The notes under the pieces: model-generated
The model's database searches: none
Seen by the model: the letters and a program-made list of their open reading frames with translations, nothing else
Told to the model about the DNA's origin: nothing
Assembly: GCF_022045235.1 (NCBI RefSeq)
Contig: NW_027266275.1
Location: 28,024,001-28,088,000 of the forward strand
Direction: 5' to 3'
Source: Haliotis cracherodii
Lineage: Eukaryota
DNA: 64,000 nucleotides
Shown here: positions 28,426-63,529 of the stretch, piece by piece
Numbering within the stretch: position 1 is the first letter of the stretch
Layout: each line of letters begins with the position of its first letter
Program-made: the position numbers and the translations under genes

Positions 28426-28625
28426 GGGAGGATCGATCTCTCTAGGGGCAGGGGTACGGTGCTGTGACCCTCCCCCATCACACAGTGCCTGTCGCTCTCA
28501 TCAATTCATACATACACACTGTGATATCTCACAATTCTAGATTGTCTAAGGACGGCCTACCTTGGGCTGCACATTTTGCTCAGTAGCTGTTGTCTGACAT
28601 GTATTACTTTTGTAAATCAGTTTAT

Positions 28626-29629: not shown

Positions 29630-29900
29630 GACTAGTCAAGATCCGGGGTAGAACAGGTCTTCAGCAACCCATTCTTGACGTAAAAGGCGACTATGCTTGT
29701 CGTAAAAGGCGACTAATGGGATCGGGTGGTCAGGCACGCAGACTTGGTTGATGCATGCCATGATCCCAGTTGTGTGGATCGATGCTCATGATGTCAATCA
29801 CTGGATTGTCTGTTCCAGACTTGATTATTTACAGACTGCCGTCATATAGCTCCAATATTGCTGAGTGTGGCGTTCAACAACAAACAAACAAAACAAAAAA
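29630..29900 (+). mobile_element. SINE family A, full length, double-hairpin subfamily
   Basis: Head ...gatccggggtagaacaggtcttcagc, duplicated cttgNcgtaaaaggcgact module, (AAAC)n tail. Confidence 0.88.
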
Positions 29901-30702
29901 CTTGGACTCGTCTCCTGTGGCTTTAAGTTATCTTCTAGCCCTGAACATTATAACTGAAAGGTAGGCTTGGTCATTCAGAATTACTCTTTCCATTCAGCAT
30001 TGGTGAATGTACCCACGACTAATCATTACCTCAAATCAGATGTCTGCTCTTTTTGTCCAGATAGTCCTCTCCCATGTTTGTCCACATACGAGGCCAAAAC
30101 AGAGTGTCGACTCATTGTAACAATTATATTTATATGTAAAATTGCATATATGTAAATTATGCACATGTAAGCAAATATGAGCATGTAAATGAGGTTTGCA
30201 CTTCTTTCAAATGTATTATTTACAGTTTTTATTATGTGTACCACATGTCATGATGTGAATTGATGGATAACCAAACAGATTACTGTCTTGATTTGTACAC
30301 CAGTGCCATTGTACAAAACAACCTTAGTGCTACGACTGTCGTAAGTCTATGTTAAGGTATGGGCATTATGATCACCTGAGCGGTAAGATCGCTTTGTACA
30401 ACGGCACCCTGATATGTAATGAGATGCAATAGTGTTCTTACGTCCATGGTAATTATCCAGTAAACATGATCAGAGGCAGAACCATGGACAAGTGACCAGC
30501 TTGTCACCGTATTGATATTATAAATTTGTATATTTTTATTTGTAATCTACATTGTTTACAAGAGCAACTCTGACTTGGCTGTTTTTAAAGATGTTGAAAT
30601 AGGTGTGCATTTTATGATAACTAATTGGGTAGGGTTAATCTAGAATGTGATTATACACGCACGTAAACAGGACTGTAACAAGCCACTGTGCACTGAGGAA
30701 TC

Positions 30703-30835
30703 GGGCGGTGGGGTAGCCTAATGGTTAATGCGTTTGCTTGTCATACCAAAGGCCCAGGTTTGATTCTCCACGTGAGTACCATGTCTGAAGCCCATTTCTG
30801 GTGTCCCCCACCATAATATTACTGGAATATTGCTT
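30703..30835 (+). mobile_element. SINE family B with 11-bp TSD (duplicate at 42724-42856)
   Basis: TSD actgaggaatc at 30692-30702 and 30836-30846; tRNA A/B boxes. Confidence 0.85.
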
Positions 30836-32451
30836 ACTGAGGAATCACTACGTTATGAGTTGAAGTACTGTATAATGAGGTTATGTATGGGTTTTGAGTA
30901 GATTAAAATTTAACATTGCATTATCAATATTTCAGCCATATCGACATGTGGTATGACATGAATCATGCAGGAGATATATTTTTCTGGCAGTAAGGTTCTC
31001 AAACCATTGTTAGTTTATATAATTGATAAAGTGTATCTGGTACTCAATATGTTTTCCTGGACACACTATTCACCTGTTGATGATTGAATACAGCTGGATT
31101 ATGCGAGCACTTTTCATGCAGCATACCTTCAATCATATCACAACCTTCCTGTGTTGATGCATGTCATAATGTGACAGTGTATTGTTACAGTGCTGTACAA
31201 CAAATACGTCATCTCACATTCCACGAGTCTGTCATTCAGACCTATTCTAGTTCAGTAGTTGCATAGCTTTTAGAACTGATTTACTGACACAATGTCTTGA
31301 TTTTACATGGTGGATTCTGAACTTCTTATATTTTCCCTATTTTTTATGTATTTACACCACTATGGTGCGTTATGTCCATTGTTTATTGGTGGGGTGTTAT
31401 TTTTTGTAACAACCCTGCACATGGAATTGCAGAGACTGGGGACTGGGCCTCAGTTCATGATGTCGTGTAGAGCACTTCGCTTCTAGGCCCATATGGTGTA
31501 TGTGCTTTTGGCTCACTCTTGAAGAGGGCAATAACCTATACATATCCAGCTTGAGGCTGACTGCTCGGTGTTCAGGGCATGACAGTGGAATAGAAGCAGA
31601 CAATATAAAGGAAATTATGTCATCCACAAAGTTGGGACATCCTCAACCTGAAACTGTAATTTATGAAATATCCTTGGTGTCAGTTTCTTGGACTTCCTAT
31701 TAGTATTACCTGGTAGTATCTGAAGCCAGTCAGATGAAGAATCCGTCCATATGTATTAATTTATTTCAAATTGATGAATAGTATTTATTCTCTACTCTTC
31801 GTTGGATTTCTGTACTCCCATTTTGTTGAGAAATTCTGTGATCTTTAATAAATGTTACATAAATTAGCCTTTTGTGTTCTTCTCTTCATTGTGGAGTATC
31901 CCTTCACCTCAACAGTGCCCACTGACAATATTTCAAAAGGATATCTTTCAAGTCTTTTGAAAAGATCATCAACAATGTCTTGACAGTAAATATGATTTAA
32001 TTCATTATCAGAGATTGCATTATGTCCATCTTTTGGCTTATGTACACGGTATTCTTTGTGAAACATCATGTGAAGAACAATGCCATCAACTGTTGGAAGA
32101 CCAGTCATCCATTTTACTGTATACTTACTTTAAATTATTCAACAATAAAATTCAATGAAATAGTTTGTTTTCTTAAACATGATGACATGGATCAAAGGAT
32201 AGTTACAACAGTTTCTTCTGGCAACGTGTGGCAATTTAGGTATACCTAAATATACCAAGATATCACCTCTGAACTGTCCAGATATCCTCATTTTTGGCAT
32301 ATTTGACATCAGCAGTGTGATGCAGACAAAACCAAGTTATGCTGTTTCAGTGAACAGAACACTGGCACCTCACATAACTGCACTGTAGTAAATTGGCATA
32401 GTCTTGTTTCCTGTACCATCTCAAAGCACACATGAACAGATCAAAAACCTG

Positions 32452-35400
32452 TCATGTCCCCACCCCAACACCATCTGCTCCCTCTTCATCCAACAGACCA
32501 AAGGATTTGTACACCTTGTGCTGGCGAGAATTCCGGAGCTTTTTCAAATCATCTGCATACTGTTGTTCTCGCACCAGCTGTCTGCGTTGCTCCTCGAGTT
32601 CGGCCTTGTGTTGGTGCAGCGCCCGGGTCGTCTGTATCAGCCCCAGCAGTTTTCGCCTTAACTGCCGGTTCTCCGTCTTGATCTGGTTTGTGTGTTCCGT
32701 CAGACATTGAGTTGCCTCCTAGAGAAATGAACAAGGAGAAATCATTGACCAAGGTGTTGGACCAGAGCATGCATCTTCAGACACACATAGCTTTACATTA
32801 AAATATATAAATTGAAAAACTGGACACAAATAATATCCAAAGCAAGTTTGGACCAAAAGAGTATGTCTGTTTGAATCATTTAGACTTATTCAATTGTAGC
32901 ATGCAAATAAAGGTCATTTGACAATACCATTCAGATAACAGAATTACTATCAGGAGATCAAAAGATCATCTTCACTCAATCACTGTTTTGTTTTGAACAA
33001 GGAAACCAGTACTTAGACCTCAAGTAGGTCACAGTGGTCAACATGTAACTCCCTAACTCACAGATAGACCACTGTATTGTAATATGCATTGATCTATGGT
33101 TACATTCCACTCTTCCCCGTAAAGATCTGGGTCGGAATAGGTCTTCAGCAACCCAAGCTTGCTGTAAAAGGTGACTGTTTGTCAAGCTCGCTGACTTGGT
33201 TGACTCATGTCATCGTATCCCAATTGCGTGGGTAGATGCTCATGATATCAATCACTTGATCGTCTGATCCAGACTCGAGCAGCGTTTAACCACAAACATA
33301 AAAACATCCCACCCTTACCTTGTTAGCCTTTTTCTCAAGGGTTGTTATCCGAGTTTCGGAGTCCTGCTGGAAGTCATGTTTCTCAGTGAGAAAATTTGAC
33401 TTGAGTTGCTGCATTGTCTCGGAATGCTTGGCACGCATCTTCATCACTTCCTTCTCCAGGTTGCGGATCTTGGTGAGCTGCTCTGTCTGGAGGTCCTGTG
33501 TACACCGATAGAGAGGACATGGTCACTGAATGTGCAGAGGTGTGGGCAACAAGTTGAACTCTTGGATAGGAACAAACTAACTGTAGATCAAACTGCTATT
33601 TCCATAGTTTCAACAATGGTATATCAACTCTTCATACATGTCATAGTTAACCACATGACTTGAATAAATGTATAGTTTATTCCTCCAGTAATACACACGA
33701 GTCAGTGTTCAACACACTTTGAATATAGCTGGTGAGTGACGCAGCCAGTTATACTCTCAAACCCCTGAGTCTGCACAGGATAGTCTCGAACCAATTGTTC
33801 TGGCTTGATACATGACACTTTTTCAGGTAACAAGGTATCTCATTTGATCTGTAACTATTCATACATTAAGACCATGCTATCAGACATGACACATCAAGAA
33901 GTTTGTCATCAAACCTCATTTTTGACATTTTAATCTCAGTGTTTGTTTTGCATAAAGCTGACCTTGTATTCCTGAAGGTCACTCAGCTCCTGCTTTGTCT
34001 TGGTTAGCATATGCTGCTTCTCCAGCCGCACATTCTCCAGGGCTGGACAACAGAAGACACAATATCAGCAACGGAAAACACACAGTGGATATACCAACAT
34101 CAGAACACAGTGGATATATCAGCAACAGAAGATGCACAGTGGATATACCAACAACAGAACACAGTGGATATATCAGCAACAGAACACAGTGGATAACAAC
34201 AACAGAACACAGTGGATATATCAGCAACAGAACACAGTGGATATACCAACAACAGAACACAGTGGATATACCAACAACAGAACACAGTGGATATACCAAC
34301 AACAGAACACAGTTGATATATCAGCAACAGAACACAGTGGATATATCAGCAACAGAACATAGTGGATATACCAACAACAGAACACAGTGGATATACCAAC
34401 AACAGAACACAGTGGATATATCAGCAACAGAACACAGTGGATAACAACAGAAGACACACAGTGGATATACCAACAACAGAACACAGTGGATATACCAACA
34501 ACAGAATACAGTGGATATACCAACAACAGAACACAGTGGATATATCAGCAACAGAACATAGTGGATATACCAACAACAGAACACAGTGGATATACCAACA
34601 ACAGAACACAGTTGATATACCAACAACAGAACAAAGTGGATATACCAACAACAGAACACAGTGGGTATATCAGAAACAGAACACAGTGGGTATATCAGCA
34701 ACAGAACACAGGGCATAACAACAACAGAAGACACAGTGGATATGAATAACAGGAGATGCACAGTGGATATCAACAGAAGACACAGTGGATATCAGCAATA
34801 GGACAAACACTGGATTTCATCAAAAGGAGAAACACTGGATATCAACAACAGAAAACACAGGGGATATCAACAACAGAAGACACAGGGGATATCAACAACA
34901 TGATACAGTGGATATCAGCAACAGAAAACACAAGGGATATCAAAAATAAAAGTGAGGGAAGTAATATACTCTAGATTCTCAGACACTGGTGCATCACAAA
35001 GTATTCCCAAATATCCATACTTGTACAAAAGATATTCCCTTTAGAGAAACAAATAATCTGCTGACCTACAGCTCTCCTAGAAATACATGGGAAACATGGG
35101 AGCTTACAGATCTTTCTAAGGGAGCTTCATGCCTATGACATGTGACACATACTCAGTCCAGTAGTAGTATATATTCTAATTAAATATATAACATCTAAAT
35201 GAAGGGACAACAAAAAATATGAATCTTTATTATAATTCCTTTAGGAAGACATCCCCTTTAAGCCTTGTTCATGAGTCCCAAGACTCAACTTCAATGGCAA
35301 TGTAATCATTGTCTGATTTTGTTCATCTAAATACTATGTTTGATATCATCAAGAGGAAACCGAATCCGAAAAATATCAACATGACTTAGCCTAGATGGCA

Positions 35401-36723
35401 ACTTTATGACTTTTAGCAACCAAGGTCCCTCTGTCCATCTTAAGATCTTCTTGCTAACCTTTCTTTTTCTCATCGAACTCCTCCTCCATGAGCTGTTTCT
35501 GCATCTGAATGTTGCGTATCTCCTGCTTGTTGTGGTCACTCAGTGTGATGATCGCAGTCTGACGCTTGCTGGTCTTCTTCTCCATGTAACTCATGTACTC
35601 ATGCTGGAAGATACACCCACATCACAACATATCCAGACACAGTCAAACAAATGTGTACAGCATAATACAATCAAAAATGTCAAAAGAAGGAAAGACGGTC
35701 ACAATCATGGATGGGTTAAACATACACAGCTGAGGCTTTAATTCCTTCCTGCTAACCTTTCATACCAATTAAAGCAACTTTCTTGAACGGCAAGAAAACA
35801 ATGCAATAAAACGGCTAAAACATGCACAATCTGGAATATGGGCTAATTTGTGAACGTGTCACACATTGATTCTCTCCATTTAGTTACTGACCAAATTCTA
35901 CCTGAACTTCTGTTCTGTCATTGTCATGTTTACAGTTACAAGTGGAAGCAATGACAATTGCAGCCACCCATTGGGAGTTGACTGCAGCAAACCCACAAAG
36001 GTAGACTTCTCTGTACTACAGGAACTATAAGACTAAAGAAATGTAAACGTGTCTCAGTACTTACACTCTCCACTCGCACTTTGTGAGCCTCCTGCTGCAA
36101 CCAGTCATTCTCTTCCCGTCTGAGAGTGGGAGTTAAGTTTACAAAACACATATGTTACTTTTATAACCGAATCAACTCACTATAAATTTGCAATGATCTA
36201 TGGGGGTGGGGTGGGGGTTTGGGGTGGGGGTGGGGCGGGGAGATATGACAAAAGTATGTGATGCTAACAAAATGAAGATCTTACAGTATGCTAACATTAA
36301 TGATTTGACTTGAGCATACATCAGATAATTTATGCTAGCATACTGTAAGATCTTCATTTTGTTAGCATTACATAGTAACTTACGAAAATAACAACAAAGC
36401 TTTATTACTAATTCAGATCGGTTCATTTCTAGGACAGTGACTCAATGTCACCCAAAATATCAGGAAGATTTTGTATATATTTGCTATTGACACACAAGAA
36501 TCTCCTGGCAAAATTATAATGTCATGAAAATGTCCTCATGCCATTTTCTTCTACGAAAATCACTGTAATGAGTATGAAGATATGTGGCAAAACATGTGTC
36601 CCACAGCTCACTCAAGGACGGACTGACAATGACATGTAAAAGGTATACCTCTGGAGAACAGGTAACACATGGATAAGTTGTGTGGGATGAGTGGGAATAG
36701 GGATGGAAAGAGCCAGGCTACAC

Positions 36724-36769
<46 letters not shown>

Positions 36770-37233
36770 CCCTCTTTTTTAAAGGATACAAATCTTCAAC
36801 CTTTTTCTTTGAATTTTCAAGTTCTTCTGTGACCTTCACCAACCTACAAATAAACATAAAAAGAAATGTTAGTTTTGTAGTGCTTAGTGTCAATGTTTAT
36901 ATAAAAATTTAAAAAAACATCATTTACATCTTTTATTTTTGTGCCATCATTATCAAGAATTATCAATCTCTGAAATACCGTAGACCTGTAAGCCTATGAC
37001 TTCAGCATGCCTAAAAATTTAGGCTAGCCTAGGCCAATTAAGTTTCTCTGGATAGAATCTATCGTGTATATATATCAGTATATAAAAACTTACTCTTGCT
37101 GCAGCAATATCTCTTTCTCGGTTGGTTCTGGTGTTTTTGGTCTCTCGATTTCATTTGATGCATCATCTTTTCCCTTTCCGCCTTTCTTTCCCTTTTTACC
37201 ATTTTTACCCTTCCCTTTCTTCTTTGGTGGCAT
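32452..37233 (-). CDS. CCDC166: Coiled-coil domain-containing protein 166-like (DUF4515 family), copy 1, 7 exons, 305 aa
   Basis: Exons 37233-37094, 36843-36790, 36119-36065, 35603-35459, 34042-33963, 33495-33319, 32718-32452(TGA), all GT-AG and in phase. MPPKKK..., LREENDWLQQEAHKVRVESHEYMSYMEKK..AIITLSDHN, LQEYKDLQTEQLTKIRNLEKE and EHTNQIKTENRQLR match remembered CCDC166 motifs. Paralogue assignment versus CCDC121 is less certain. Confidence 0.83.
33115..33300 (+). mobile_element. SINE family A, internally deleted (duplicate 45136-45321)
   Basis: Head ccccgtaaagatctgggtcggaataggtcttcagcaaccc. Confidence 0.8.
34045..34950. repeat. 25-bp minisatellite abutting a CCDC166 acceptor (duplicate 46066-46971)
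   Basis: Unit aacagaacacagtggatataccaac; explains the many repetitive ORFs here. Confidence 0.95.
36724..36767. repeat. (AAT)n microsatellite (duplicate 48745-48788)
   Basis: About 14 AAT units, same length in both copies. Confidence 0.95.
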
Positions 37234-37471
37234 CTTTGTAAAGTCGCTGAACGATCTCGTATAGGCGTTGCCTGGCAACGAATAATAGCTTCGTTTGAAT
37301 TATTTGTTTCGTATGAAAGGAACAAATGTTTTTGTTCTTCAGAAACATATTTGTCCGTTTTTAATTAGCAAAAATGTATATCAACATTTATAATGTCATG
37401 TCAGTTGGAAGCGAGAATTGATAAATGTTTTGAATGTTGAATACGCAACTTTACAGCAGAGCTGATTAAAA
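37234..37471. promoter_or_regulatory. Bidirectional promoter CCDC166-like/LSM11 with palindromic RFX X-box (duplicate 49255-49492)
   Basis: Divergent ATGs 238 bp apart; GTTGCCTGGCAAC at 37267-37279. Confidence 0.75.
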
Positions 37472-37832
37472 ATGGCAGCCCCCACGGATAACATGTCAGA
37501 CGACGTCAGTGACGAAGAACTCAATCTATTCTCATCGAATTTTGATCCTTTGCGAGCTTTGTACTCGACCAATATCCCTGTTCAGTTTCCAGACGTTCGA
37601 GTCTTTAACAATGTCGCAGAATACGAAAGCAAAATGCAAGGAAAAGGGAGAGCTCGTCAAGATCCACATTTGTCAATGTCCCAAAATCCGCCGTCCCAGA
37701 CAGCGAGTAGACCTAAAGCTCCATCACACAAACCGTCTGCTCAGGGCAGACCGGTTCTACAGATGCCTGACGCCAGTATGCATAGTGTAAGACGTAGGAT
37801 GCTAAGGAATGTGTTGACACGAATGGATCAAA
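37472..37832 (+). CDS. LSM11: LSM11 exon 1, duplicated upstream copy (N-terminal region only)
   Basis: Same translation as 49493-49853; FDPLRALY..FNNVAEYES..RNVLTRM motifs; donor gtaagc at 37833. Exons 2-4 exist only after copy 2. Confidence 0.85.
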
Positions 37833-39515
37833 GTAAGCTCTCAAAATATTTGACAAAAAGTGGAAGGCAGCAACCATTTAATTTTCAATGTGTGTGTGTG
37901 GTTCTAAAAAAAGATAAACAAGACCTTGGTCTACTGATTTCTTTTTTACATATGCCTCGCATTGTAGGAAAATATATAATGTGCCCTTTTCTTGCAGATA
38001 AACGTCAAAAAAATATAGTTCATTTTTTACATTTATTGAAAAAATTTCATTGAGCCTGTTGAGTATACTCAGAACCCATGGTACCGCGGCATTCATCGTA
38101 TCGCAGTATTTGTGATTTCTGGTTGTTCATGTGGGACATACATCCTAGTCACCATTGTCTAAATCAAATCAATAACCAGAAAGTCCACGCTTCATAAATA
38201 ATTTCAATTTCTGCAGAATGTTCTATAAGTAAGTATTTATTGACATGTTGATACCTACTTCTGAGTCCTGACATCTATTTAATATTGCCTTATCACTTAT
38301 ATCAATGGACAACCATATGACACGCAGTTTCCCATGTAAACTTTCTCCATCGACCTGAACTAGATCGTCTGCATATTCATGGTGACAAATAAGGTAACGG
38401 AAGTGACGTAGTCCTCATATTTTTCCTTCTATAAAGTGGCCAGAATATTTTAGGAGATGATAAGAGCCATAATGCCATCCTTAGCAATATGTTCTTCTCC
38501 AGTAGCCAAATGATAAATTCATACTGTTGTCACTATAGGAGTGCTTTTTAGATATTTATTGTTAACATTTAACACATTTTCACTTTTTGGGACTAATTAT
38601 TTTCATCCTATTTTTGAATAAAATCTTAAAATATCTTTTCTGATATTTTGTTATTGGTTTTAAAAAAAATCTTAGTTTTTCGGTAAATATGTTTTGAATA
38701 CCTATTGATTATTACACATAATGAATATTACTTGTGCTGTCTTTGCACTTGTCTGGATAATTCACAGAAGTCTGGCATCATCATACTTTGTGGTTGGTAG
38801 AAATATGTCCTGTTTTTACAATTTAGGGCCTCCATACACAACTTTTCCCTGTACTGCAGTACACTGGAGTTCTCTCCCTAGTTAAACTGAGTGAGATGCC
38901 CGGCTTTCACTAGGTGCATCTAATGTAAATAATGAACATTTATCGGTAAAATATGCATAGATAGATAAAATACATGAATCTGATCAAGAGAACATGAATA
39001 ATCATAAACATGATGAAGGTTAGTGAGTGCATTTTGTTCTCTTTTGCCTACATAACAAGTAAACGTGATAACCCAAGGTTGCAGGCTACTTGTATATTAT
39101 GTTTATGTTTTTATGTTTATTTGAGCTGCTGAACATTAAAAAAATATATGCTGATCTGAAATGCTTGCTCCTTTATTTACTTTTTATGTGATTCGGCTTG
39201 ACAGCAGTTTACCTGGTGCATCTTGTTGAGCTAATTAGCTCCGGGTAACCAGATGTGGCTCTTGCTTCATGGACCTTGCCTGCCTCTTTGATCCATAGGG
39301 TTAGTTGTGTTTGGGTTGGGGAAGGTTACCACAACTCTGCACTTACCCTTGGATATGGGAATAAAACAACTAGTCCGTCTACATTCTTAGTAGTCTCAGA
39401 CCAACGGACTAGTAGGCATTTCTATCCCTGGATAAATGGTTATGACTAGGGTTAGCTATTTCACCTCCTTTAACAAATTAATCAAGTGTTATGTCAGGTA
39501 AATCCTTACAATTTT

Positions 39516-40642
39516 ACGAGAATGAGTTGCGCAATGAATTATGGCTACCACGGATGCATATTATAATAGAAATTGAAATTGAAAAATTGGGTACAACACT
39601 AAGTAAACAAAAATGAATTATTTGTGATAGCACACGTTGTCCCATGGTAAACTGTTGGTTTATTAGATTAACTCATTAGACTAGCTAGCTTCAAACTGGC
39701 AACGCAAGTTCGAAATCCAAACAAGTGCATTCCAGTAAAGTGCAGTACTCCCGATAATATTTATCTGATTCGTTAAATGTCTTTAAGTCTCCTTCTCAGC
39801 AAATACTTGAAAACAATCCACTCACATTCATAACAATGATCTCAGGGAGTCACTTGTACCCATAACAGGCCTGTCACACCTACACGTTACATCCTCTACT
39901 GCTGATAATATTGTTGAATGATAACAATTCATTTTTATATCCGCGCAAGTGCAGGCCTTATTGCACAATAGCATGCCCAGACACATGTTCAAAGAAAGTG
40001 TTCTTCTGTACCATGTATGTCAAAGTTACTTCCAAACATTTTAAGCAGACCCAGCTGATTTTGTTGTGTCTTGGGTTTACCAATAACAGCCAGAGACTAA
40101 GTAAGAGTCAAAGCAGTGGCAACATCTGACGTCTCCTTCTCCAAAAAGGGTAAAGTCTGTTCCATCAGCTGGCAAGGTGATGGCTTCCAGTTTCTGGGAT
40201 TCACCTACTGTTGGACTACCTCCTGAAAGTCAGACTATTATGATCTCTTACATGATTAAGACTATGCTAAGCTGCATAGGCAACTGCATGTGAATATCAA
40301 GGCTAAACATCGTGGAGGTGAGTCTCTAAAGGTGTGTTGGTCCATGAGGACAATGCATCTGCACAAGTTTGTTTTTGCCATGTCGGCAATGCAAGACTGG
40401 CTTGCTTTGAATTCAGTTAACATCCTCCGTTTTTACCAGATTTTGCATCATCATATTTTCACCTCTTCCCAAGCTTGAAGAAGTAAATGTCTGGCAAGCA
40501 TTGTGCAAATGATGATGATGTCATTTCTTCTGTGGAGGACAGTTTACCCCTCCAGGAGGAAGCCTTCTACACCAGTGGGATCCAGGCACTCCCTGGCATT
40601 GTTGCCAGAAGTGTGTGAACTTTGGAATGGATTATGTTGAAG
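39516..40642 (+). pseudogene. Decayed mariner transposase (duplicate 51537-52663)
   Basis: Fragments KQWQ..SPSPKRVKSVPSAGKVMASSFWDS (~40110-40203), VHEDNASA (40340), HPPFLPDFASSYFHLFPSLKK* (40421; compare HPPYSPDLAPSDFHLF) and AFYTSGIQAL..QKCV..DYVE, with stops and frameshifts. The 5' limit is approximate. Confidence 0.85.
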
Positions 40643-41838
40643 CAGTGTCTGAAACTCAGCAGAGTTAAATGAAAGAGCCTTCAATAATTGTAGGCCCTGT
40701 GGAAAAAGTGTAGGCCCTGTGGAAAAAGTGTAGGCCCTGTGGAAAAGTGTAGGCCCTGTGGAAAAAGTGTAGGCCCTGTGGAAAAAGTGTAGGCTCTGTG
40801 GAAAAAGTGTAGGCCCTGTGGAAAAAGTGTAGGCCCAAGCAGTTTGCTGCATCAGGGAGACATACTCTCGGAGGATAAATTACAGAACACAACCAGGCAA
40901 CCAGAGACTTAGTGGTGATAAATGATGTCTACATTTATCGGGAAATTATCAATTTGTGAAACATCTTTGCAACTTCTGGTACATGTCATACACCATTTGA
41001 AAGGTCTAATTCTCATATTTATAAATATGAAAGTTATGTTTATCCCATTACTTAAATAATGCTTAAAGGGGAAGTGTACACGCAAAAATCACTTTCTTTC
41101 TTTTTCTAAACAAAACGCAATTTTAGAATTAGTTAGTATCTGTGTTTGAAAATATACACTCATTTTTTTCACAGTGAAAGTAGGAAGCTCACAATAGTGT
41201 GAAAGTGATATGCCGTTATGAGGCCTTCGTTTTACGAGCGAAATAGGCCTGAGTTATCCCCCTTAGATTATGACGTAATTGGTGCCAATTCAACTGGGTC
41301 CCTGTCTATTCTCAACGCAAAAGATATCAAGGACCAGTGTGCAGTAAAACAACATGGTCTACGACACACTCGGGCGCAGGGTGACTCAGCATAACACAAT
41401 TCTGGCTGGCATCTGAGATGCTAGAATCACAAAACTGTACCTACACCACGTGAAGCGGCTCTAACAAAGCATGATGACGTCATAATGTTTATCAATTGGC
41501 ACCAATGACGTCATATTGCAAGGGGCATAAGCCATGGTGTTTTTGTTATGGAAAGAGAACACTTGGTAAATGTGAAAAATATAAATCGTTTTAGTGCAAA
41601 AAATATGTTAATTAAATATGATGTTTTTATATTTTTGTCTATGACACTTCTATGTTAACACTTTTAATGTGGAAAAAGTACAAGAAAAAATGGTTCATTT
41701 CCGTGTGAACTTGCCCTTTAATAAATCATTACTTAAGTAAACTGCATACCATAAGGGCCTATTGAAAATAAAGACTATCAGCCCCAGAACAAATCTCTCT
41801 GCCTCTGGCCTACGGGCTGATGTCTATTTTGAACACTG
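40643..41838. mobile_element. hAT-like non-autonomous element with 8-bp TSD and an internal 20-bp repeat (duplicate 52664-53859)
   Basis: Termini cagtgtctgaaa / ttttgaacactg; TSD tgttgaag / ttttgaag; gtaggccctgtggaaaaagt x7 at 40690-40835. Confidence 0.75.
41067..41717. mobile_element. Kolobok-like MITE with TTAA TSD (duplicate 53088-53738)
   Basis: ttaa|AGGGGAAGTGTACACG...CGTGTGAACTTGCCCT|ttaa, plus an internal inverted repeat atgacgtaattggtgccaatt / aattggcaccaatgacgtcat. Confidence 0.8.
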
Positions 41839-44472: not shown

Positions 44473-47400
44473 TCATGTCCCCACCCCAACACCATCTGCT
44501 CCCTCTTCATCCAACAGACCAAAGGATTTGTACACCTTGTGCTGGCGAGAATTCCGGAGCTTTTTCAAATCATCTGCATACTGTTGTTCTCGCACCAGCT
44601 GTCTGCGTTGCTCCTCGAGTTCGGCCTTGTGTTGGTGCAGCGCCCGGGTCGTCTGTATCAGCCCCAGCAGTTTTCGCCTTAACTGCCGGTTCTCCGTCTT
44701 GATCTGGTTTGTGTGTTCCGTCAGACATTGAGTTGCCTCCTAGAGAAATGAACAAGGAGAAATCATTGACCAAGGTGTTGGACCAGAGCATGCATCTTCA
44801 GACACACATAGCTTTACATTAAAATATATAAATTGAAAAACTGGACACAAATAATATCCAAAGCAAGTTTGGACCAAAAGAGTATGTCTGTTTGAATCAT
44901 TTAGACTTATTCAATTGTAGCATGCAAATAAAGGTCATTTGACAATACCATTCAGATAACAGAATTACTATCAGGAGATCAAAAGATCATCTTCACTCAA
45001 TCACTGTTTTGTTTTGAACAAGGAAACCAGTACTTAGACCTCAAGTAGGTCACAGTGGTCAACATGTAACTCCCTAACTCACAGATAGACCACTGTATTG
45101 TAATATGCATTGATCTATGGTTACATTCCACTCTTCCCCGTAAAGATCTGGGTCGGAATAGGTCTTCAGCAACCCAAGCTTGCTGTAAAAGGTGACTGTT
45201 TGTCAAGCTCGCTGACTTGGTTGACTCATGTCATCGTATCCCAATTGCGTGGGTAGATGCTCATGATATCAATCACTTGATCGTCTGATCCAGACTCGAG
45301 CAGCGTTTAACCACAAACATAAAAACATCCCACCCTTACCTTGTTAGCCTTTTTCTCAAGGGTTGTTATCCGAGTTTCGGAGTCCTGCTGGAAGTCATGT
45401 TTCTCAGTGAGAAAATTTGACTTGAGTTGCTGCATTGTCTCGGAATGCTTGGCACGCATCTTCATCACTTCCTTCTCCAGGTTGCGGATCTTGGTGAGCT
45501 GCTCTGTCTGGAGGTCCTGTGTACACCGATAGAGAGGACATGGTCACTGAATGTGCAGAGGTGTGGGCAACAAGTTGAACTCTTGGATAGGAACAAACTA
45601 ACTGTAGATCAAACTGCTATTTCCATAGTTTCAACAATGGTATATCAACTCTTCATACATGTCATAGTTAACCACATGACTTGAATAAATGTATAGTTTA
45701 TTCCTCCAGTAATACACACGAGTCAGTGTTCAACACACTTTGAATATAGCTGGTGAGTGACGCAGCCAGTTATACTCTCAAACCCCTGAGTCTGCACAGG
45801 ATAGTCTCGAACCAATTGTTCTGGCTTGATACATGACACTTTTTCAGGTAACAAGGTATCTCATTTGATCTGTAACTATTCATACATTAAGACCATGCTA
45901 TCAGACATGACACATCAAGAAGTTTGTCATCAAACCTCATTTTTGACATTTTAATCTCAGTGTTTGTTTTGCATAAAGCTGACCTTGTATTCCTGAAGGT
46001 CACTCAGCTCCTGCTTTGTCTTGGTTAGCATATGCTGCTTCTCCAGCCGCACATTCTCCAGGGCTGGACAACAGAAGACACAATATCAGCAACGGAAAAC
46101 ACACAGTGGATATACCAACATCAGAACACAGTGGATATATCAGCAACAGAAGATGCACAGTGGATATACCAACAACAGAACACAGTGGATATATCAGCAA
46201 CAGAACACAGTGGATAACAACAACAGAACACAGTGGATATATCAGCAACAGAACACAGTGGATATACCAACAACAGAACACAGTGGATATACCAACAACA
46301 GAACACAGTGGATATACCAACAACAGAACACAGTTGATATATCAGCAACAGAACACAGTGGATATATCAGCAACAGAACATAGTGGATATACCAACAACA
46401 GAACACAGTGGATATACCAACAACAGAACACAGTGGATATATCAGCAACAGAACACAGTGGATAACAACAGAAGACACACAGTGGATATACCAACAACAG
46501 AACACAGTGGATATACCAACAACAGAATACAGTGGATATACCAACAACAGAACACAGTGGATATATCAGCAACAGAACATAGTGGATATACCAACAACAG
46601 AACACAGTGGATATACCAACAACAGAACACAGTTGATATACCAACAACAGAACAAAGTGGATATACCAACAACAGAACACAGTGGGTATATCAGAAACAG
46701 AACACAGTGGGTATATCAGCAACAGAACACAGGGCATAACAACAACAGAAGACACAGTGGATATGAATAACAGGAGATGCACAGTGGATATCAACAGAAG
46801 ACACAGTGGATATCAGCAATAGGACAAACACTGGATTTCATCAAAAGGAGAAACACTGGATATCAACAACAGAAAACACAGGGGATATCAACAACAGAAG
46901 ACACAGGGGATATCAACAACATGATACAGTGGATATCAGCAACAGAAAACACAAGGGATATCAAAAATAAAAGTGAGGGAAGTAATATACTCTAGATTCT
47001 CAGACACTGGTGCATCACAAAGTATTCCCAAATATCCATACTTGTACAAAAGATATTCCCTTTAGAGAAACAAATAATCTGCTGACCTACAGCTCTCCTA
47101 GAAATACATGGGAAACATGGGAGCTTACAGATCTTTCTAAGGGAGCTTCATGCCTATGACATGTGACACATACTCAGTCCAGTAGTAGTATATATTCTAA
47201 TTAAATATATAACATCTAAATGAAGGGACAACAAAAAATATGAATCTTTATTATAATTCCTTTAGGAAGACATCCCCTTTAAGCCTTGTTCATGAGTCCC
47301 AAGACTCAACTTCAATGGCAATGTAATCATTGTCTGATTTTGTTCATCTAAATACTATGTTTGATATCATCAAGAGGAAACCGAATCCGAAAAATATCAA

Positions 47401-48744
47401 CATGACTTAGCCTAGATGGCAACTTTATGACTTTTAGCAACCAAGGTCCCTCTGTCCATCTTAAGATCTTCTTGCTAACCTTTCTTTTTCTCATCGAACT
47501 CCTCCTCCATGAGCTGTTTCTGCATCTGAATGTTGCGTATCTCCTGCTTGTTGTGGTCACTCAGTGTGATGATCGCAGTCTGACGCTTGCTGGTCTTCTT
47601 CTCCATGTAACTCATGTACTCATGCTGGAAGATACACCCACATCACAACATATCCAGACACAGTCAAACAAATGTGTACAGCATAATACAATCAAAAATG
47701 TCAAAAGAAGGAAAGACGGTCACAATCATGGATGGGTTAAACATACACAGCTGAGGCTTTAATTCCTTCCTGCTAACCTTTCATACCAATTAAAGCAACT
47801 TTCTTGAACGGCAAGAAAACAATGCAATAAAACGGCTAAAACATGCACAATCTGGAATATGGGCTAATTTGTGAACGTGTCACACATTGATTCTCTCCAT
47901 TTAGTTACTGACCAAATTCTACCTGAACTTCTGTTCTGTCATTGTCATGTTTACAGTTACAAGTGGAAGCAATGACAATTGCAGCCACCCATTGGGAGTT
48001 GACTGCAGCAAACCCACAAAGGTAGACTTCTCTGTACTACAGGAACTATAAGACTAAAGAAATGTAAACGTGTCTCAGTACTTACACTCTCCACTCGCAC
48101 TTTGTGAGCCTCCTGCTGCAACCAGTCATTCTCTTCCCGTCTGAGAGTGGGAGTTAAGTTTACAAAACACATATGTTACTTTTATAACCGAATCAACTCA
48201 CTATAAATTTGCAATGATCTATGGGGGTGGGGTGGGGGTTTGGGGTGGGGGTGGGGCGGGGAGATATGACAAAAGTATGTGATGCTAACAAAATGAAGAT
48301 CTTACAGTATGCTAACATTAATGATTTGACTTGAGCATACATCAGATAATTTATGCTAGCATACTGTAAGATCTTCATTTTGTTAGCATTACATAGTAAC
48401 TTACGAAAATAACAACAAAGCTTTATTACTAATTCAGATCGGTTCATTTCTAGGACAGTGACTCAATGTCACCCAAAATATCAGGAAGATTTTGTATATA
48501 TTTGCTATTGACACACAAGAATCTCCTGGCAAAATTATAATGTCATGAAAATGTCCTCATGCCATTTTCTTCTACGAAAATCACTGTAATGAGTATGAAG
48601 ATATGTGGCAAAACATGTGTCCCACAGCTCACTCAAGGACGGACTGACAATGACATGTAAAAGGTATACCTCTGGAGAACAGGTAACACATGGATAAGTT
48701 GTGTGGGATGAGTGGGAATAGGGATGGAAAGAGCCAGGCTACAC

Positions 48745-48790
<46 letters not shown>

Positions 48791-49254
48791 CCCTCTTTTT
48801 TAAAGGATACAAATCTTCAACCTTTTTCTTTGAATTTTCAAGTTCTTCTGTGACCTTCACCAACCTACAAATAAACATAAAAAGAAATGTTAGTTTTGTA
48901 GTGCTTAGTGTCAATGTTTATATAAAAATTTAAAAAAACATCATTTACATCTTTTATTTTTGTGCCATCATTATCAAGAATTATCAATCTCTGAAATACC
49001 GTAGACCTGTAAGCCTATGACTTCAGCATGCCTAAAAATTTAGGCTAGCCTAGGCCAATTAAGTTTCTCTGGATAGAATCTATCGTGTATATATATCAGT
49101 ATATAAAAACTTACTCTTGCTGCAGCAATATCTCTTTCTCGGTTGGTTCTGGTGTTTTTGGTCTCTCGATTTCATTTGATGCATCATCTTTTCCCTTTCC
49201 GCCTTTCTTTCCCTTTTTACCATTTTTACCCTTCCCTTTCTTCTTTGGTGGCAT
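44473..49254 (-). CDS. CCDC166: CCDC166-like, copy 2 (no difference seen from copy 1)
   Basis: Exons 49254-49115, 48864-48811, 48140-48086, 47624-47480, 46063-45984, 45516-45340, 44739-44473. Confidence 0.83.
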
Positions 49255-49492
49255 CTTTGTAAAGTCGCTGAACGATCTCGTATAGGCGTTGCCTGGCAAC
49301 GAATAATAGCTTCGTTTGAATTATTTGTTTCGTATGAAAGGAACAAATGTTTTTGTTCTTCAGAAACATATTTGTCCGTTTTTAATTAGCAAAAATGTAT
49401 ATCAACATTTATAATGTCATGTCAGTTGGAAGCGAGAATTGATAAATGTTTTGAATGTTGAATACGCAACTTTACAGCAGAGCTGATTAAAA

Positions 49493-52400
49493 ATGGCAGC
49501 CCCCACGGATAACATGTCAGACGACGTCAGTGACGAAGAACTCAATCTATTCTCATCGAATTTTGATCCTTTGCGAGCTTTGTACTCGACCAATATCCCT
49601 GTTCAGTTTCCAGACGTTCGAGTCTTTAACAATGTCGCAGAATACGAAAGCAAAATGCAAGGAAAAGGGAGAGCTCGTCAAGATCCACATTTGTCAATGT
49701 CCCAAAATCCGCCGTCCCAGACAGCGAGTAGACCTAAAGCTCCATCACACAAACCGTCTGCTCAGGGCAGACCGGTTCTACAGATGCCTGACGCCAGTAT
49801 GCATAGTGTAAGACGTAGGATGCTAAGGAATGTGTTGACACGAATGGATCAAAGTAAGCTCTCAAAATATTTGACAAAAAGTGGAAGGCAGCAACCATTT
49901 AATTTTCAATGTGTGTGTGTGGTTCTAAAAAAAGATAAACAAGACCTTGGTCTACTGATTTCTTTTTTACATATGCCTCGCATTGTAGGAAAATATATAA
50001 TGTGCCCTTTTCTTGCAGATAAACGTCAAAAAAATATAGTTCATTTTTTACATTTATTGAAAAAATTTCATTGAGCCTGTTGAGTATACTCAGAACCCAT
50101 GGTACCGCGGCATTCATCGTATCGCAGTATTTGTGATTTCTGGTTGTTCATGTGGGACATACATCCTAGTCACCATTGTCTAAATCAAATCAATAACCAG
50201 AAAGTCCACGCTTCATAAATAATTTCAATTTCTGCAGAATGTTCTATAAGTAAGTATTTATTGACATGTTGATACCTACTTCTGAGTCCTGACATCTATT
50301 TAATATTGCCTTATCACTTATATCAATGGACAACCATATGACACGCAGTTTCCCATGTAAACTTTCTCCATCGACCTGAACTAGATCGTCTGCATATTCA
50401 TGGTGACAAATAAGGTAACGGAAGTGACGTAGTCCTCATATTTTTCCTTCTATAAAGTGGCCAGAATATTTTAGGAGATGATAAGAGCCATAATGCCATC
50501 CTTAGCAATATGTTCTTCTCCAGTAGCCAAATGATAAATTCATACTGTTGTCACTATAGGAGTGCTTTTTAGATATTTATTGTTAACATTTAACACATTT
50601 TCACTTTTTGGGACTAATTATTTTCATCCTATTTTTGAATAAAATCTTAAAATATCTTTTCTGATATTTTGTTATTGGTTTTAAAAAAAATCTTAGTTTT
50701 TCGGTAAATATGTTTTGAATACCTATTGATTATTACACATAATGAATATTACTTGTGCTGTCTTTGCACTTGTCTGGATAATTCACAGAAGTCTGGCATC
50801 ATCATACTTTGTGGTTGGTAGAAATATGTCCTGTTTTTACAATTTAGGGCCTCCATACACAACTTTTCCCTGTACTGCAGTACACTGGAGTTCTCTCCCT
50901 AGTTAAACTGAGTGAGATGCCCGGCTTTCACTAGGTGCATCTAATGTAAATAATGAACATTTATCGGTAAAATATGCATAGATAGATAAAATACATGAAT
51001 CTGATCAAGAGAACATGAATAATCATAAACATGATGAAGGTTAGTGAGTGCATTTTGTTCTCTTTTGCCTACATAACAAGTAAACGTGATAACCCAAGGT
51101 TGCAGGCTACTTGTATATTATGTTTATGTTTTTATGTTTATTTGAGCTGCTGAACATTAAAAAAATATATGCTGATCTGAAATGCTTGCTCCTTTATTTA
51201 CTTTTTATGTGATTCGGCTTGACAGCAGTTTACCTGGTGCATCTTGTTGAGCTAATTAGCTCCGGGTAACCAGATGTGGCTCTTGCTTCATGGACCTTGC
51301 CTGCCTCTTTGATCCATAGGGTTAGTTGTGTTTGGGTTGGGGAAGGTTACCACAACTCTGCACTTACCCTTGGATATGGGAATAAAACAACTAGTCCGTC
51401 TACATTCTTAGTAGTCTCAGACCAACGGACTAGTAGGCATTTCTATCCCTGGATAAATGGTTATGACTAGGGTTAGCTATTTCACCTCCTTTAACAAATT
51501 AATCAAGTGTTATGTCAGGTAAATCCTTACAATTTTACGAGAATGAGTTGCGCAATGAATTATGGCTACCACGGATGCATATTATAATAGAAATTGAAAT
51601 TGAAAAATTGGGTACAACACTAAGTAAACAAAAATGAATTATTTGTGATAGCACACGTTGTCCCATGGTAAACTGTTGGTTTATTAGATTAACTCATTAG
51701 ACTAGCTAGCTTCAAACTGGCAACGCAAGTTCGAAATCCAAACAAGTGCATTCCAGTAAAGTGCAGTACTCCCGATAATATTTATCTGATTCGTTAAATG
51801 TCTTTAAGTCTCCTTCTCAGCAAATACTTGAAAACAATCCACTCACATTCATAACAATGATCTCAGGGAGTCACTTGTACCCATAACAGGCCTGTCACAC
51901 CTACACGTTACATCCTCTACTGCTGATAATATTGTTGAATGATAACAATTCATTTTTATATCCGCGCAAGTGCAGGCCTTATTGCACAATAGCATGCCCA
52001 GACACATGTTCAAAGAAAGTGTTCTTCTGTACCATGTATGTCAAAGTTACTTCCAAACATTTTAAGCAGACCCAGCTGATTTTGTTGTGTCTTGGGTTTA
52101 CCAATAACAGCCAGAGACTAAGTAAGAGTCAAAGCAGTGGCAACATCTGACGTCTCCTTCTCCAAAAAGGGTAAAGTCTGTTCCATCAGCTGGCAAGGTG
52201 ATGGCTTCCAGTTTCTGGGATTCACCTACTGTTGGACTACCTCCTGAAAGTCAGACTATTATGATCTCTTACATGATTAAGACTATGCTAAGCTGCATAG
52301 GCAACTGCATGTGAATATCAAGGCTAAACATCGTGGAGGTGAGTCTCTAAAGGTGTGTTGGTCCATGAGGACAATGCATCTGCACAAGTTTGTTTTTGCC

Positions 52401-55400
52401 ATGTCGGCAATGCAAGACTGGCTTGCTTTGAATTCAGTTAACATCCTCCGTTTTTACCAGATTTTGCATCATCATATTTTCACCTCTTCCCAAGCTTGAA
52501 GAAGTAAATGTCTGGCAAGCATTGTGCAAATGATGATGATGTCATTTCTTCTGTGGAGGACAGTTTACCCCTCCAGGAGGAAGCCTTCTACACCAGTGGG
52601 ATCCAGGCACTCCCTGGCATTGTTGCCAGAAGTGTGTGAACTTTGGAATGGATTATGTTGAAGCAGTGTCTGAAACTCAGCAGAGTTAAATGAAAGAGCC
52701 TTCAATAATTGTAGGCCCTGTGGAAAAAGTGTAGGCCCTGTGGAAAAAGTGTAGGCCCTGTGGAAAAGTGTAGGCCCTGTGGAAAAAGTGTAGGCCCTGT
52801 GGAAAAAGTGTAGGCTCTGTGGAAAAAGTGTAGGCCCTGTGGAAAAAGTGTAGGCCCAAGCAGTTTGCTGCATCAGGGAGACATACTCTCGGAGGATAAA
52901 TTACAGAACACAACCAGGCAACCAGAGACTTAGTGGTGATAAATGATGTCTACATTTATCGGGAAATTATCAATTTGTGAAACATCTTTGCAACTTCTGG
53001 TACATGTCATACACCATTTGAAAGGTCTAATTCTCATATTTATAAATATGAAAGTTATGTTTATCCCATTACTTAAATAATGCTTAAAGGGGAAGTGTAC
53101 ACGCAAAAATCACTTTCTTTCTTTTTCTAAACAAAACGCAATTTTAGAATTAGTTAGTATCTGTGTTTGAAAATATACACTCATTTTTTTCACAGTGAAA
53201 GTAGGAAGCTCACAATAGTGTGAAAGTGATATGCCGTTATGAGGCCTTCGTTTTACGAGCGAAATAGGCCTGAGTTATCCCCCTTAGATTATGACGTAAT
53301 TGGTGCCAATTCAACTGGGTCCCTGTCTATTCTCAACGCAAAAGATATCAAGGACCAGTGTGCAGTAAAACAACATGGTCTACGACACACTCGGGCGCAG
53401 GGTGACTCAGCATAACACAATTCTGGCTGGCATCTGAGATGCTAGAATCACAAAACTGTACCTACACCACGTGAAGCGGCTCTAACAAAGCATGATGACG
53501 TCATAATGTTTATCAATTGGCACCAATGACGTCATATTGCAAGGGGCATAAGCCATGGTGTTTTTGTTATGGAAAGAGAACACTTGGTAAATGTGAAAAA
53601 TATAAATCGTTTTAGTGCAAAAAATATGTTAATTAAATATGATGTTTTTATATTTTTGTCTATGACACTTCTATGTTAACACTTTTAATGTGGAAAAAGT
53701 ACAAGAAAAAATGGTTCATTTCCGTGTGAACTTGCCCTTTAATAAATCATTACTTAAGTAAACTGCATACCATAAGGGCCTATTGAAAATAAAGACTATC
53801 AGCCCCAGAACAAATCTCTCTGCCTCTGGCCTACGGGCTGATGTCTATTTTGAACACTGTTTTGAAGAAAGATGAGCAACCAACTCCATCAACGCAGGCC
53901 ATCTCCATCACTCGTCATACATGTACAGATTTATATCAGTTATGATATTTTATCTTTGAATGGAAGCTTGAAATCAAGAATAATAATCTCATCAGCACTC
54001 TAGTCAGGAATAATCATATACACAGCAACCGTTGAACAAGCATATCACATGATTTCAAAAATGGAGATCTGAGGAGTTTGGTACTTGGCATTTGTGTTTT
54101 TATCTCTCGGTCATGTGGTTACCAGAAATATGAAAGCTATGTTCATTGATTAATCTGAAACAAAACAGGCAAAACAATTTTCTATAGTCACTAACCATGC
54201 TAACAACATGTTTTCTGCATTGGTATGTTTTCTTCTTTAGGTTTTTGTTAACATGGTTAACAACGCTTTTGTTACATACACTTGATCTTTGGACCCGTGA
54301 AAATCCGGGGTAGAATAGGTCTTCTGCAACCCATGCTTGCCGTAAAAGCCAACTATGCTTGTCATAAGAGCCAACTAACGGGATAGGGTGGTCAGGCTCA
54401 CTGACTTGGTTGTTGCATGTCATCGTATCCCAATTGAGCATGTTGAGTGGATTGATGCTCATGATGTCAATCACTGGATTGTCGGGTCCGGACTTCATTA
54501 TTTACAGACCGCCGTCATATAGCTGGAATATAGCTGAGTGTGGCGTTAAACAACAAACAAACAAACAAAAACACTTGATCTTTGCTCATTCAGTCTATTG
54601 TGATCATTGTTGTTTGCAGCAAATTCTACCTCTACTCAACACATGACAATCACTGAGCGAAACAGAAGACCTTTCTTCAGCAATGGCATTGAGTTGTAGT
54701 AAGGTGTGAGTGGTACAGCCAGATATGTGTTCTTGTTTCAGGCTTCATCAGTGGGCCACTGAGTATCTTGAGGCGCTGTGTTCAGGAGAAGCTGCAGACA
54801 TACATATGGACTCGCAGTGCATGCAGTGTTCGGGGGATTCTCAGAGGATATGTTGTAGCTTTCGACAAACACTTTAATTTGGTAAGGGTTAACAGTCTGG
54901 AAGTTGTTATGTCAGGTGACCATTCTCAAGCCCTCAAGGGGCGGTCGGGTAGCCTAGTGGTTAAAGCGTTCGCTCGTCACGCCAAAGACCCGGGTTCGAT
55001 TCCCGACATGGGTACAATGTGTGAAGCCCATTTCTGGTGTCCCCCGCAGTGATTTTGCTGGAATATTGCTAAAAGCGACGCTAAACCATACTCACACTCA
55101 CTCAAGCCCTTGATCGTTTGTCCTACCATGCCCACAAAGCAGGTTAATAATGGATTGTCTTTGAATTGTTCACAGTGCTAAATATGACTCTGTTTCATCA
55201 TTCCTACTGAAGTTTAGAATTACACTCAGTACAGTCGACTTGGTCTGTTTTGTCAGCATGCTCCATATGTTGGAGATCAACGAAGTACACAATGGTACAA
55301 TCAAACCTATTTATTTCTTATTGTCTGCAGGCAATGATTGATGTTGATGAAGTCTACAGAATTCCCAGTGTTTGCAGGAAGAAAATGAAAAAGGTACAAA

Positions 55401-56222
55401 TATATATATATTTAAAATTTAAAACAATACTTCTTCTGACATGTTTCTTTCGTATCATCAGGGAGAATTATCATCATATTGTATCATCAGATTCTCCCTG
55501 ATGATACAAATGAAGTATGTCGGAGGAAGTATTTGTCGTTGTGTTTTGTTTTAAATGTATAATATATTGGAATGTACACTCGAATTGTAAGTACATTTAT
55601 TTATGTTAATATATATATCTTTATGTGTTCAATATCCAGTTTGTTAATATCACTATTCATAGGTCCTGTTTTGTATGTTTAGGGATGAGTTTTGATAATG
55701 TAATATGTTAACATCTTTTTTATGGAATATGGAAGCTGTATCAATGCTGACACAGTTGCCTTATGGATTTGAGCTTCTACATTCTTTCAATGTGATGTTT
55801 CAATAAGGATGCTAGTATCTTATCGAGCAAGTGATCAACAACTGGGTAGGACATGGTTAGGTAGCTAACATTACATATCTTCTTGTTTCTGACAGATGAG
55901 AGATGTAAAACAAGATCGTCTGGCTCAAGAAAAATCTGCAGATGTAGAGATGGAAGAAGCTGATGCAAGAGCATCCTCTCGCAGTGAAGATCAACGCAGA
56001 CATTTCATATCAGAGCGATTATCCTCCACACAGACAACCCATCGCTCTACCTCAACAACTCATACACACCAAACCTCAGGTCAGGTCTCGCAATGTGAAA
56101 CACCTCTGCCACGTGAAGCAGCCTGGCTTGGACTGAGACCAGAAGATGTTCAGTGGCGACATGTGAATCAATTGTTCATAAGGGGAGATAATGTGGTGTG
56201 TGTCAATCTTGTTGGTACTTGA
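49493..56222 (+). CDS. LSM11: U7 snRNA-associated Sm-like protein LSm11, 4 exons, 296 aa
   Basis: Exons 49493-49853, 54742-54881, 55331-55393, 55896-56222(TGA). N-terminal FDPLRALY/FNNVAEYES; Sm1 GPLSILRRC..VRGILRGYVVAFDKHFNL|AMIDVDEVY; long insert; Sm2 RHVNQLFIRGDNVVCV. Confidence 0.95.
54292..54570 (+). mobile_element. SINE family A, full length, 14-bp TSD
   Basis: TSD acacttgatctttg at 54278-54291 and 54571-54584; (AAAC)n tail. Confidence 0.92.
54938..55100 (+). mobile_element. SINE family B, full length, 10-bp TSD
   Basis: tRNA head with A box tagcctagtgg and B box gggttcgattccc; TSD ctcaagccct at 54925-54934 and 55101-55110. Confidence 0.92.
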
Positions 56223-63480: not shown

Positions 63481-63529
63481 CAGGACAACGAATTAAAAAC
63501 ACACATAAACGAAAGATTTAGCAGCTATT

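What the first reader, a model, noticed from the sequence alone, without database searches (positions are those of the whole stretch)
30105..54148. 12,021-bp tandem duplication with no visible divergence: very recent CNV or assembly artefact
Seen: I found no difference between copies, even in the (AAT)n and 25-bp arrays. The breakpoints are not in shared repeats and have a 2-bp tg microhomology, with tcattg present near both ends. The result is two full CCDC166-like genes, two bidirectional promoters and two LSM11 first exons. Inference: if real, a microhomology-mediated duplication doubling a ciliary gene. The scaffold has N gaps, so a duplicated contig overlap is equally plausible.
Basis: partly seen in the sequence, partly recalled or inferred. 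Interest (0 to 1): 0.7.

Follow-up and report, generated by a model that had tools for sequence, protein, structure and literature searches.

The report
Exact 12-kb tandem duplication, one assembly
This mollusc (likely abalone) assembly carries a 12-kb stretch, holding one whole gene and the start of a second, twice in a row letter for letter; the join did not show in eight other sequencing runs, so it is likely a rare, young duplication in this one animal, possibly an assembly error, and ordinary either way.

Summary
Window 30105-42127 equals 42126-54148 with no difference, a 2-nt TG overlap and no N at the join. The unit holds a complete seven-exon DUF4515/CCDC166-like gene and exon 1 of LSM11; one intact LSM11 remains. 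In 8 of 8 runs laid (of 17 listed), a contig matches up to exactly 42127 and runs on unbroken, and no listed piece bridges the join. Those runs differ from the window by about 1.2%, so two alleles written side by side (about 147 differences expected) are excluded. The absence does not separate a real variant from an artefact, because a copy this young would be rare anyway. Mildly for real: no gap at the join, and 84%-alike copies of one SINE-like repeat just outside both breakpoints (33 of 1500 random pairs, post hoc). That fits end joining steered by diverged repeats. Verdict: about 0.7 real private duplication, 0.3 artefact; only the source reads can decide. The scan noted similar exact duplications in bacterial assemblies, none at this place. 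Low interest.

The parts
30105..42125 (+). Copy 1 of the 12,021-bp unit
42126..54148 (+). Copy 2 of the unit, including the terminal 2-nt overlap; identical to 30105-42127
42126..42127 (+). Join between the copies; TG overlap; no N; no listed contig of 8 runs bridges it
32452..37233 (-). CCDC166-like (DUF4515) gene, copy 1: 7 exons (37233-37094, 36843-36790, 36119-36065, 35603-35459, 34042-33963, 33495-33319, 32718-32452), 305 aa, intact; stop codon 2,347 nt inside the left breakpoint
   Evidence: model; PF14988 E 1e-7 on the last exon; 16 relatives at 64-79% identity; distance
44473..49254 (-). CCDC166-like gene, copy 2, identical; no further copy found elsewhere in G000
37472..37832 (+). LSM11 exon 1 coding part, copy 1 (extra first exon, 16,909 nt upstream of exon 2)
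   Evidence: match to human LSm11 chains E 1.8e-7
49493..56222 (+). Intact LSM11 gene: exons 49493-49853, 54742-54881, 55331-55393, 55896-56222; 296 aa; the right breakpoint lies in intron 1
   Evidence: model; exon 2 matches LSm11 E 8.9e-5
37234..37471 (.). 238 nt between the two head-to-head start codons; shared promoter inferred, not tested (again at 49255-49492)
29641..29880 (+). SINE-like dispersed repeat, left copy, ends 225 nt outside the left breakpoint
   Evidence: 95 hits of this repeat in 664 kb; the label 'SINE-like' is my reading of its length and AAAC tail, not tested
54303..54553 (+). SINE-like repeat, right copy, 84% like the left one, same strand, starts 154 nt outside the right breakpoint

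Best explanation
The window holds an exact head-to-tail duplication of 12,021 bp, which is likely a real, rare and young structural variant carried by the assembled animal, likely made by end joining at a 2-nt overlap after a break. Shown: the exact duplication, the gap-free join, the gene content, and contigs from eight other runs that leave the unit at its end without a break. Inferred: a break or stalled fork near the right end was joined to the left end on the sister or homologous chromatid by microhomology-type end joining (polymerase-theta-like). More tentatively inferred: the two diverged SINE-like repeats outside the breakpoints paired first and set the register; the pair was then cut and trimmed away (620 nt) before joining. 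The predicted effect is one extra dose of the CCDC166-like gene and an unharmed LSM11, with no new protein.
For: Exact copy with no N at the join. Only one N run in 664 kb around it, 19 kb away, and only one exact duplication of 1.5 kb or more there. [quoted passage not shown] Same-family, same-strand repeats in the 500-nt outer flanks occur in 4 of 1500 random 12-kb pairs, and in 33 of 1500 for any of four flank pairings; an assembler's cut has no obvious reason to fall there, yet outside the repeats (inference). 15-30% diverged Alu pairs steer end joining to their vicinity (PMC4356517, abstract and passages). The TCATTG echo occurs in 0.8% of random joins. Tandem duplications with microhomology joins are a known product (61.8% of 204 joins in Arabidopsis tsk mutants; PMC13031928, passages). 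Gene copy-number variation is reported in abalones (PMC9936805, abstract).
Against: No independent record of the join: 0 of 8 runs laid show it. None of the 17 listed runs holds more than 0.78 of the sampled words, so the source animal's reads were not tested. The 2-nt overlap is within chance (17%). The repeat-flank and 6-mer signals were noticed after the fact, with window sizes I chose. Zero differences over 12 kb, including microsatellites, is also what writing one sequence twice gives. PMC9516828 notes false duplications joined without a gap by wrong gap filling. 12 kb is about the length of one long read (recalled). The Alu work concerns deletions in human cell reporters, not duplications in molluscs.
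Confidence: 0.68

Rival explanations
1. Assembly artefact of the homotype kind: one haplotype's 12 kb was written twice, through overlapping contig ends joined or patched without a gap, or through one chimeric read.
For: Perfect identity including unstable arrays. The join is unseen in 8 of 8 runs laid. The overlap is no longer than chance often gives. Gap-free false duplications exist (PMC9516828, passages).
Against: No gap at the join, and no N but one 218-nt run in 664 kb. Homotype false duplication was at most 0.1% of each of three long-read assemblies (table passage). The flanking repeat pair is not explained by this reading. Absence in other animals is expected for a real young copy too.
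Confidence: 0.29
2. Two alleles of the locus placed in tandem by the assembler (heterotype false duplication).
For: It is the commonest kind of false duplication in heterozygous genomes (PMC9516828, passages).
Against: Other animals differ from the window at 50 of 4,084 nt (1.2%), so about 147 differences are expected; 0 are seen (P about 1e-64). It would need a run of homozygosity, which makes it the homotype case.
Confidence: 0.01
3. A common or fixed, possibly selected, gene duplication of the species, kept identical by gene conversion.
For: Earlier scan notes describe near-identical gene arrays elsewhere in this genome (not checked here).
Against: Six runs of organism A and two of organism B go straight out of the unit; if the six are single diploid animals, the frequency is under 22%.
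Confidence: 0.02

Closest known systems
Non-recurrent tandem duplications with microhomology joins (polymerase-theta-type end joining; for example Arabidopsis tsk mutants, PMC13031928, passages)
   Same: Head-to-tail copy, short overlap at the join, no long homology at the join.
   Different: Here the join has no read support, the overlap is only 2 nt, and no pathway was tested.
Homeology-influenced end joining near diverged Alu pairs (HI-NHEJ; PMC4356517, abstract and passages)
   Same: Direct repeats about 16% diverged (within the 15-30% range) flank the event; the join lies near them, uses microhomology and holds no hybrid repeat.
   Different: Described for deletions in human reporter cells; here a duplication in a mollusc, with both breakpoints wholly outside the repeats (154 and 225 nt), a single case, noticed post hoc.
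Homotype false duplication in genome assemblies (PMC9516828, passages)
   Same: Adjacent copies with no copy-specific letters.
   Different: No gap between the copies; read depth and read-pair tests could not be run.
Repeat-to-repeat non-allelic homologous recombination (Alu/Alu type, hybrid element at the join)
   Same: Same-strand repeat pair around the event.
   Different: No repeat at the join; the unit is 620 nt shorter than the repeat spacing. It would need a second deletion.

Membership tests
Real tandem duplication (CNV) | Two head-to-tail copies with a defined join | tested here: met
Real tandem duplication (CNV) | Join-spanning reads in the source individual | not testable with these tools
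   no listed run holds more than 0.78 of the words; source reads not found
Real tandem duplication (CNV) | Raised read depth over the unit | not testable with these tools
   only contigs were served; their depth is no copy number
Real tandem duplication (CNV) | Join present in other individuals | tested here: not met
   0 of 8 runs laid; not required for a rare variant; tables were cut and contigs drop rare variants
Heterotype false duplication | Copies differ at the level of alleles | tested here: not met
   0 of 12,023 against about 147 expected
Homotype false duplication | No copy-specific letters | tested here: met
Homotype false duplication | Assembly gap between the copies | tested here: not met
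Homotype false duplication | Low depth, depth gap or discordant pairs at the join | not testable with these tools
   needs the source reads
Microhomology-mediated join (MMEJ/TMEJ/MMBIR) | Overlap at the join beyond chance | tested here: inconclusive
   2 nt; 2 or more in 17% of 200,000 random joins; 6-mer echo in 0.8% but post hoc
Repeat-to-repeat NAHR | Hybrid repeat at the join, breakpoints in register | tested here: not met
   the join lies outside both repeats, 620 nt out of register
HI-NHEJ-like event | Direct repeats 15-30% diverged near both breakpoints | tested here: met
   84% identity, same strand, 225 and 154 nt away; chance 33 of 1500
HI-NHEJ-like event | Dependence on the repeats and on mismatch repair | not testable with these tools
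   needs enrichment over many events, or an assay
CCDC166-like / DUF4515 family | PF14988 domain above the curated cut-off | tested here: met
   last exon 32.5 bits against cut-off 24.5; 16 of 16 relatives carry PF14988
CCDC166-like / DUF4515 family | Ciliary function | not tested
   automatic names only; the paper search gave nothing direct
LSM11 (U7 snRNP) | N-terminal LSm11 motif and Sm1 motif | tested here: met
   best matches are human LSm11 for exon 1 and exon 2

The most novel reading that the evidence does not exclude
A natural germ-line tandem duplication in a mollusc whose register was set by two diverged SINE-like repeats that were then trimmed away, the duplication counterpart of homeology-influenced end joining so far described for deletions in human reporter cells. 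If this repeat family does this genome-wide, it would be a testable engine of gene copy-number change in abalone.
Probability: 0.18. Interest if true: 0.42.

Novelty: new member of a known kind. Interest (0 to 1): 0.17.

Why it matters
Practically, anyone using this assembly should treat the locus as single-copy in most animals: reads will map ambiguously over 24 kb, and annotation would count two CCDC166-like genes. Biologically it is one rare copy-number variant at most, with no new protein and no broken gene predicted. It would matter more only if breakpoints near diverged SINE-like pairs proved to be a general pattern in mollusc duplications.

Tried and rejected
Other placements of the locus in G000: none; the join flanks, the 3' flank of the gene and a related protein all match only here. 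Depth as a copy-number test: not possible with contigs. The 94-aa stop-to-stop frame at 31845-32129 (-): no Pfam family, only sub-0.9 Atlas leads; taken as a chance frame in the 3' flank. Atlas look-up of an exon-like frame at 13243-13425: kinase-labelled hits with low shared-feature counts, not accepted. Repeat-to-repeat NAHR in one step: rejected, no repeat at the join. Allelic false duplication: rejected. Fixed species duplication: rejected. Early exon models had wrong boundaries and were corrected. Earlier notes near this place: none. I do not claim that this duplication is absent from print; no search was aimed at that beyond. The base-rate survey covered only 664 kb of 1,182 Mb, too little to give a rate of exact duplications.

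Full report
Observation. The duplication is in the sequence as described. Comparing each base with the base 12,021 further on gives one unbroken identical run, 30105-42127, and blastn aligns 30105-42127 to 42126-54148 at 100.000% with no mismatch or gap. The tandem arrays inside the unit are the same in both copies. The join has a 2-nt TG overlap and no N. The window is G000:C12:28024001-28088000, and the unique sequence on both sides of the join matches only here in the genome. Earlier scan notes on the same genome call it an abalone; I did not test this, though the close relatives of the duplicated protein include a gastropod (71%) and bivalves.

Gene content. The unit holds a complete minus-strand gene of 7 exons and 305 codons, all introns GT-AG, no internal stop, identical in both copies. 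Its last exon passes the Pfam cut-off for DUF4515, and 16 relatives at 64-79% identity carry the same domain; six are named CCDC166-like and one basal-body-orientation-factor-1-like. A related protein finds only these two copies in G000. A ciliary role is plausible from those names but not shown; 4 papers hold both CCDC166 and cilia, none in title or abstract (search listing). Head to head, 238 nt away, starts LSM11: exons 1 and 2 match human LSm11 best. The right breakpoint is in LSM11 intron 1, so copy 2 plus the right flank is an intact 296-codon gene, and copy 1 adds a spare first exon 16,909 nt upstream of exon 2. The left breakpoint is 2,347 nt past the stop codon of the CCDC166-like gene; where its transcript ends is not known. 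If real, the predicted effect is an extra gene dose, perhaps damped by opposing transcription, and no new protein (inference).

Is the join in other animals? The run search listed 17 runs from 8 studies; the best holds 0.78 of the sampled words, so the source animal does not seem to be among them. I laid 8 of the 17, all contigs. In X1-X4 (organism A, one study) a contig matches up to exactly 42127 and runs on for 162, 162, 169 and 162 letters; in X3 another enters at 42126 with 235 letters before it. In X5 and X6 (organism A, second study) and X7 and X8 (organism B, two studies) the same happens, with 116, 162, 191 and 191 letters running on; depth is zero at 42130-42148 in X5, X6 and X8. The run-on letters were not printed. 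Lengths of 162-169 and 235 would end at 54310-54317 and 29870, where high-copy repeats begin, so I infer they are the single-copy flanks. No listed piece bridges the join, but the tables were cut (34,973 and 117 rows not shown), X1-X4 and X7 have other depth in that bin, and contigs drop rare variants. For those five runs the argument is the unbroken run-on, since a join at fair depth should branch the contig (inference).

What this does and does not decide. Long contigs of X1-X4 differ from the window at 50 of 4,084 nt, 1.2%. Two alleles written in tandem would show about 147 differences, so that kind of false duplication is excluded. A fixed duplication is excluded too. With the abalone mutation rate of 8.6e-9 (PMC11704959, abstract), zero differences means an age under about 14,500 generations, about 1% of 4Ne; a neutral variant that young sits near or below 0.2% frequency and would be missed in 12 haplotypes 98% of the time. 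Absence from other animals is therefore expected under both remaining readings.

Real or artefact. PMC9516828 (passages) lists low depth, a gap between copies and discordant pairs as marks of false duplication, says copies were most often separated by a gap but sometimes joined by wrong gap filling, and gives homotype false duplication as at most 0.1% of three long-read assemblies. Here there is no gap; 664 kb around the window has one N run of 218 nt, 19 kb away, which may be a mask, and no other exact duplication of 1.5 kb or more. The 2-nt overlap says little: 17% of random joins have as much. Two weaker hints favour biology. The last six letters of the unit recur within 15 nt after the join, as in 0.8% of random joins. 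Full-length copies of one SINE-like repeat (95 hits in 664 kb; label by appearance), same strand, 84% alike, end 225 nt before the left breakpoint and start 154 nt after the right one. Random 12-kb pairs show this in 4 of 1500 cases for the outer flanks and 33 of 1500 for any of four flank pairings. Both hints were noticed after the fact. I put real at 0.68 and homotype artefact at 0.29; these are judgements, not computed values.

Mechanism if real. The join holds no hybrid repeat and the unit is 620 nt shorter than the repeat spacing, so simple unequal crossing-over in the repeats is out. End joining at microhomology is the usual source of such duplications: 61.8% of 204 joins in Arabidopsis tsk mutants (PMC13031928, passages). 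PMC4356517 (abstract and passages) reports that Alu pairs 15-30% diverged shift repair from recombination to end joining in their vicinity, proposing that the mismatched pair is cut and some or all of the elements are deleted. Applied between sister chromatids, that gives this anatomy: right repeat pairs with left repeat, the pair and 379 nt of flank are trimmed, and the ends join at TG. Every step of this is inferred; the paper studied deletions in human cells. Unequal crossing-over followed by a 620-nt deletion, or a plain template switch with the repeats nearby by chance, cannot be told apart from it here.

Novelty and verdict. Gene copy-number variation is reported in abalones (PMC9936805, abstract). 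The scan has notes on exact tandem duplications in bacterial assemblies and none at this place. This is one more rare tandem duplication or one more false duplication, with intact genes either way. Interest 0.17; the boldest reading (repeat-steered duplication) has probability 0.18 and would deserve 0.42. No supplements were read; none is likely to bear on these claims.

Noticed in passing
G000:C12 about 27.73-27.84 Mb against 28.28-28.37 Mb (L049-L060, L037-L047): A large, older inverted segmental duplication: several blocks of 4-13 kb at 95-98% identity on opposite strands, 0.46-0.63 Mb apart, on either side of the window.
   Followed up: no
window about 12700-28430, + strand: A multi-exon gene with IQ-like motifs and acidic runs lies left of the duplication (PF00612 E 9e-4, just under cut-off). 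It resembles IQCE from memory; not confirmed (one search gave no support). Its last exon-like frame ends about 1.7 kb before the left breakpoint.
   Followed up: partly
window 41064-41722 (and 53085-53743): A high-copy 0.66-kb element with TTAAAGGG...CCCTTTAA inverted ends; contigs of X1-X4 skip 41062-41807, which may be empty or variant sites elsewhere. It looks like a non-autonomous DNA transposon (Kolobok-like, recalled).
   Followed up: no
window 37234-37471: LSM11 and the CCDC166-like gene are head to head with 238 nt between start codons; conservation of this pairing in other molluscs was not checked.
   Followed up: no
window 1-683, 15030-15866, 16326-18008, 22344-23183, 34080-34930, 62158-63481: Many minisatellites (periods 25-52 bp); the 36-bp array at the window's start extends to about 3.8 kb in G000.
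   Followed up: no
window 36203-36240 (and +12,021): A G-rich run of GGGGT units in an intron of the CCDC166-like gene that could form a quadruplex; far from both breakpoints.
   Followed up: no
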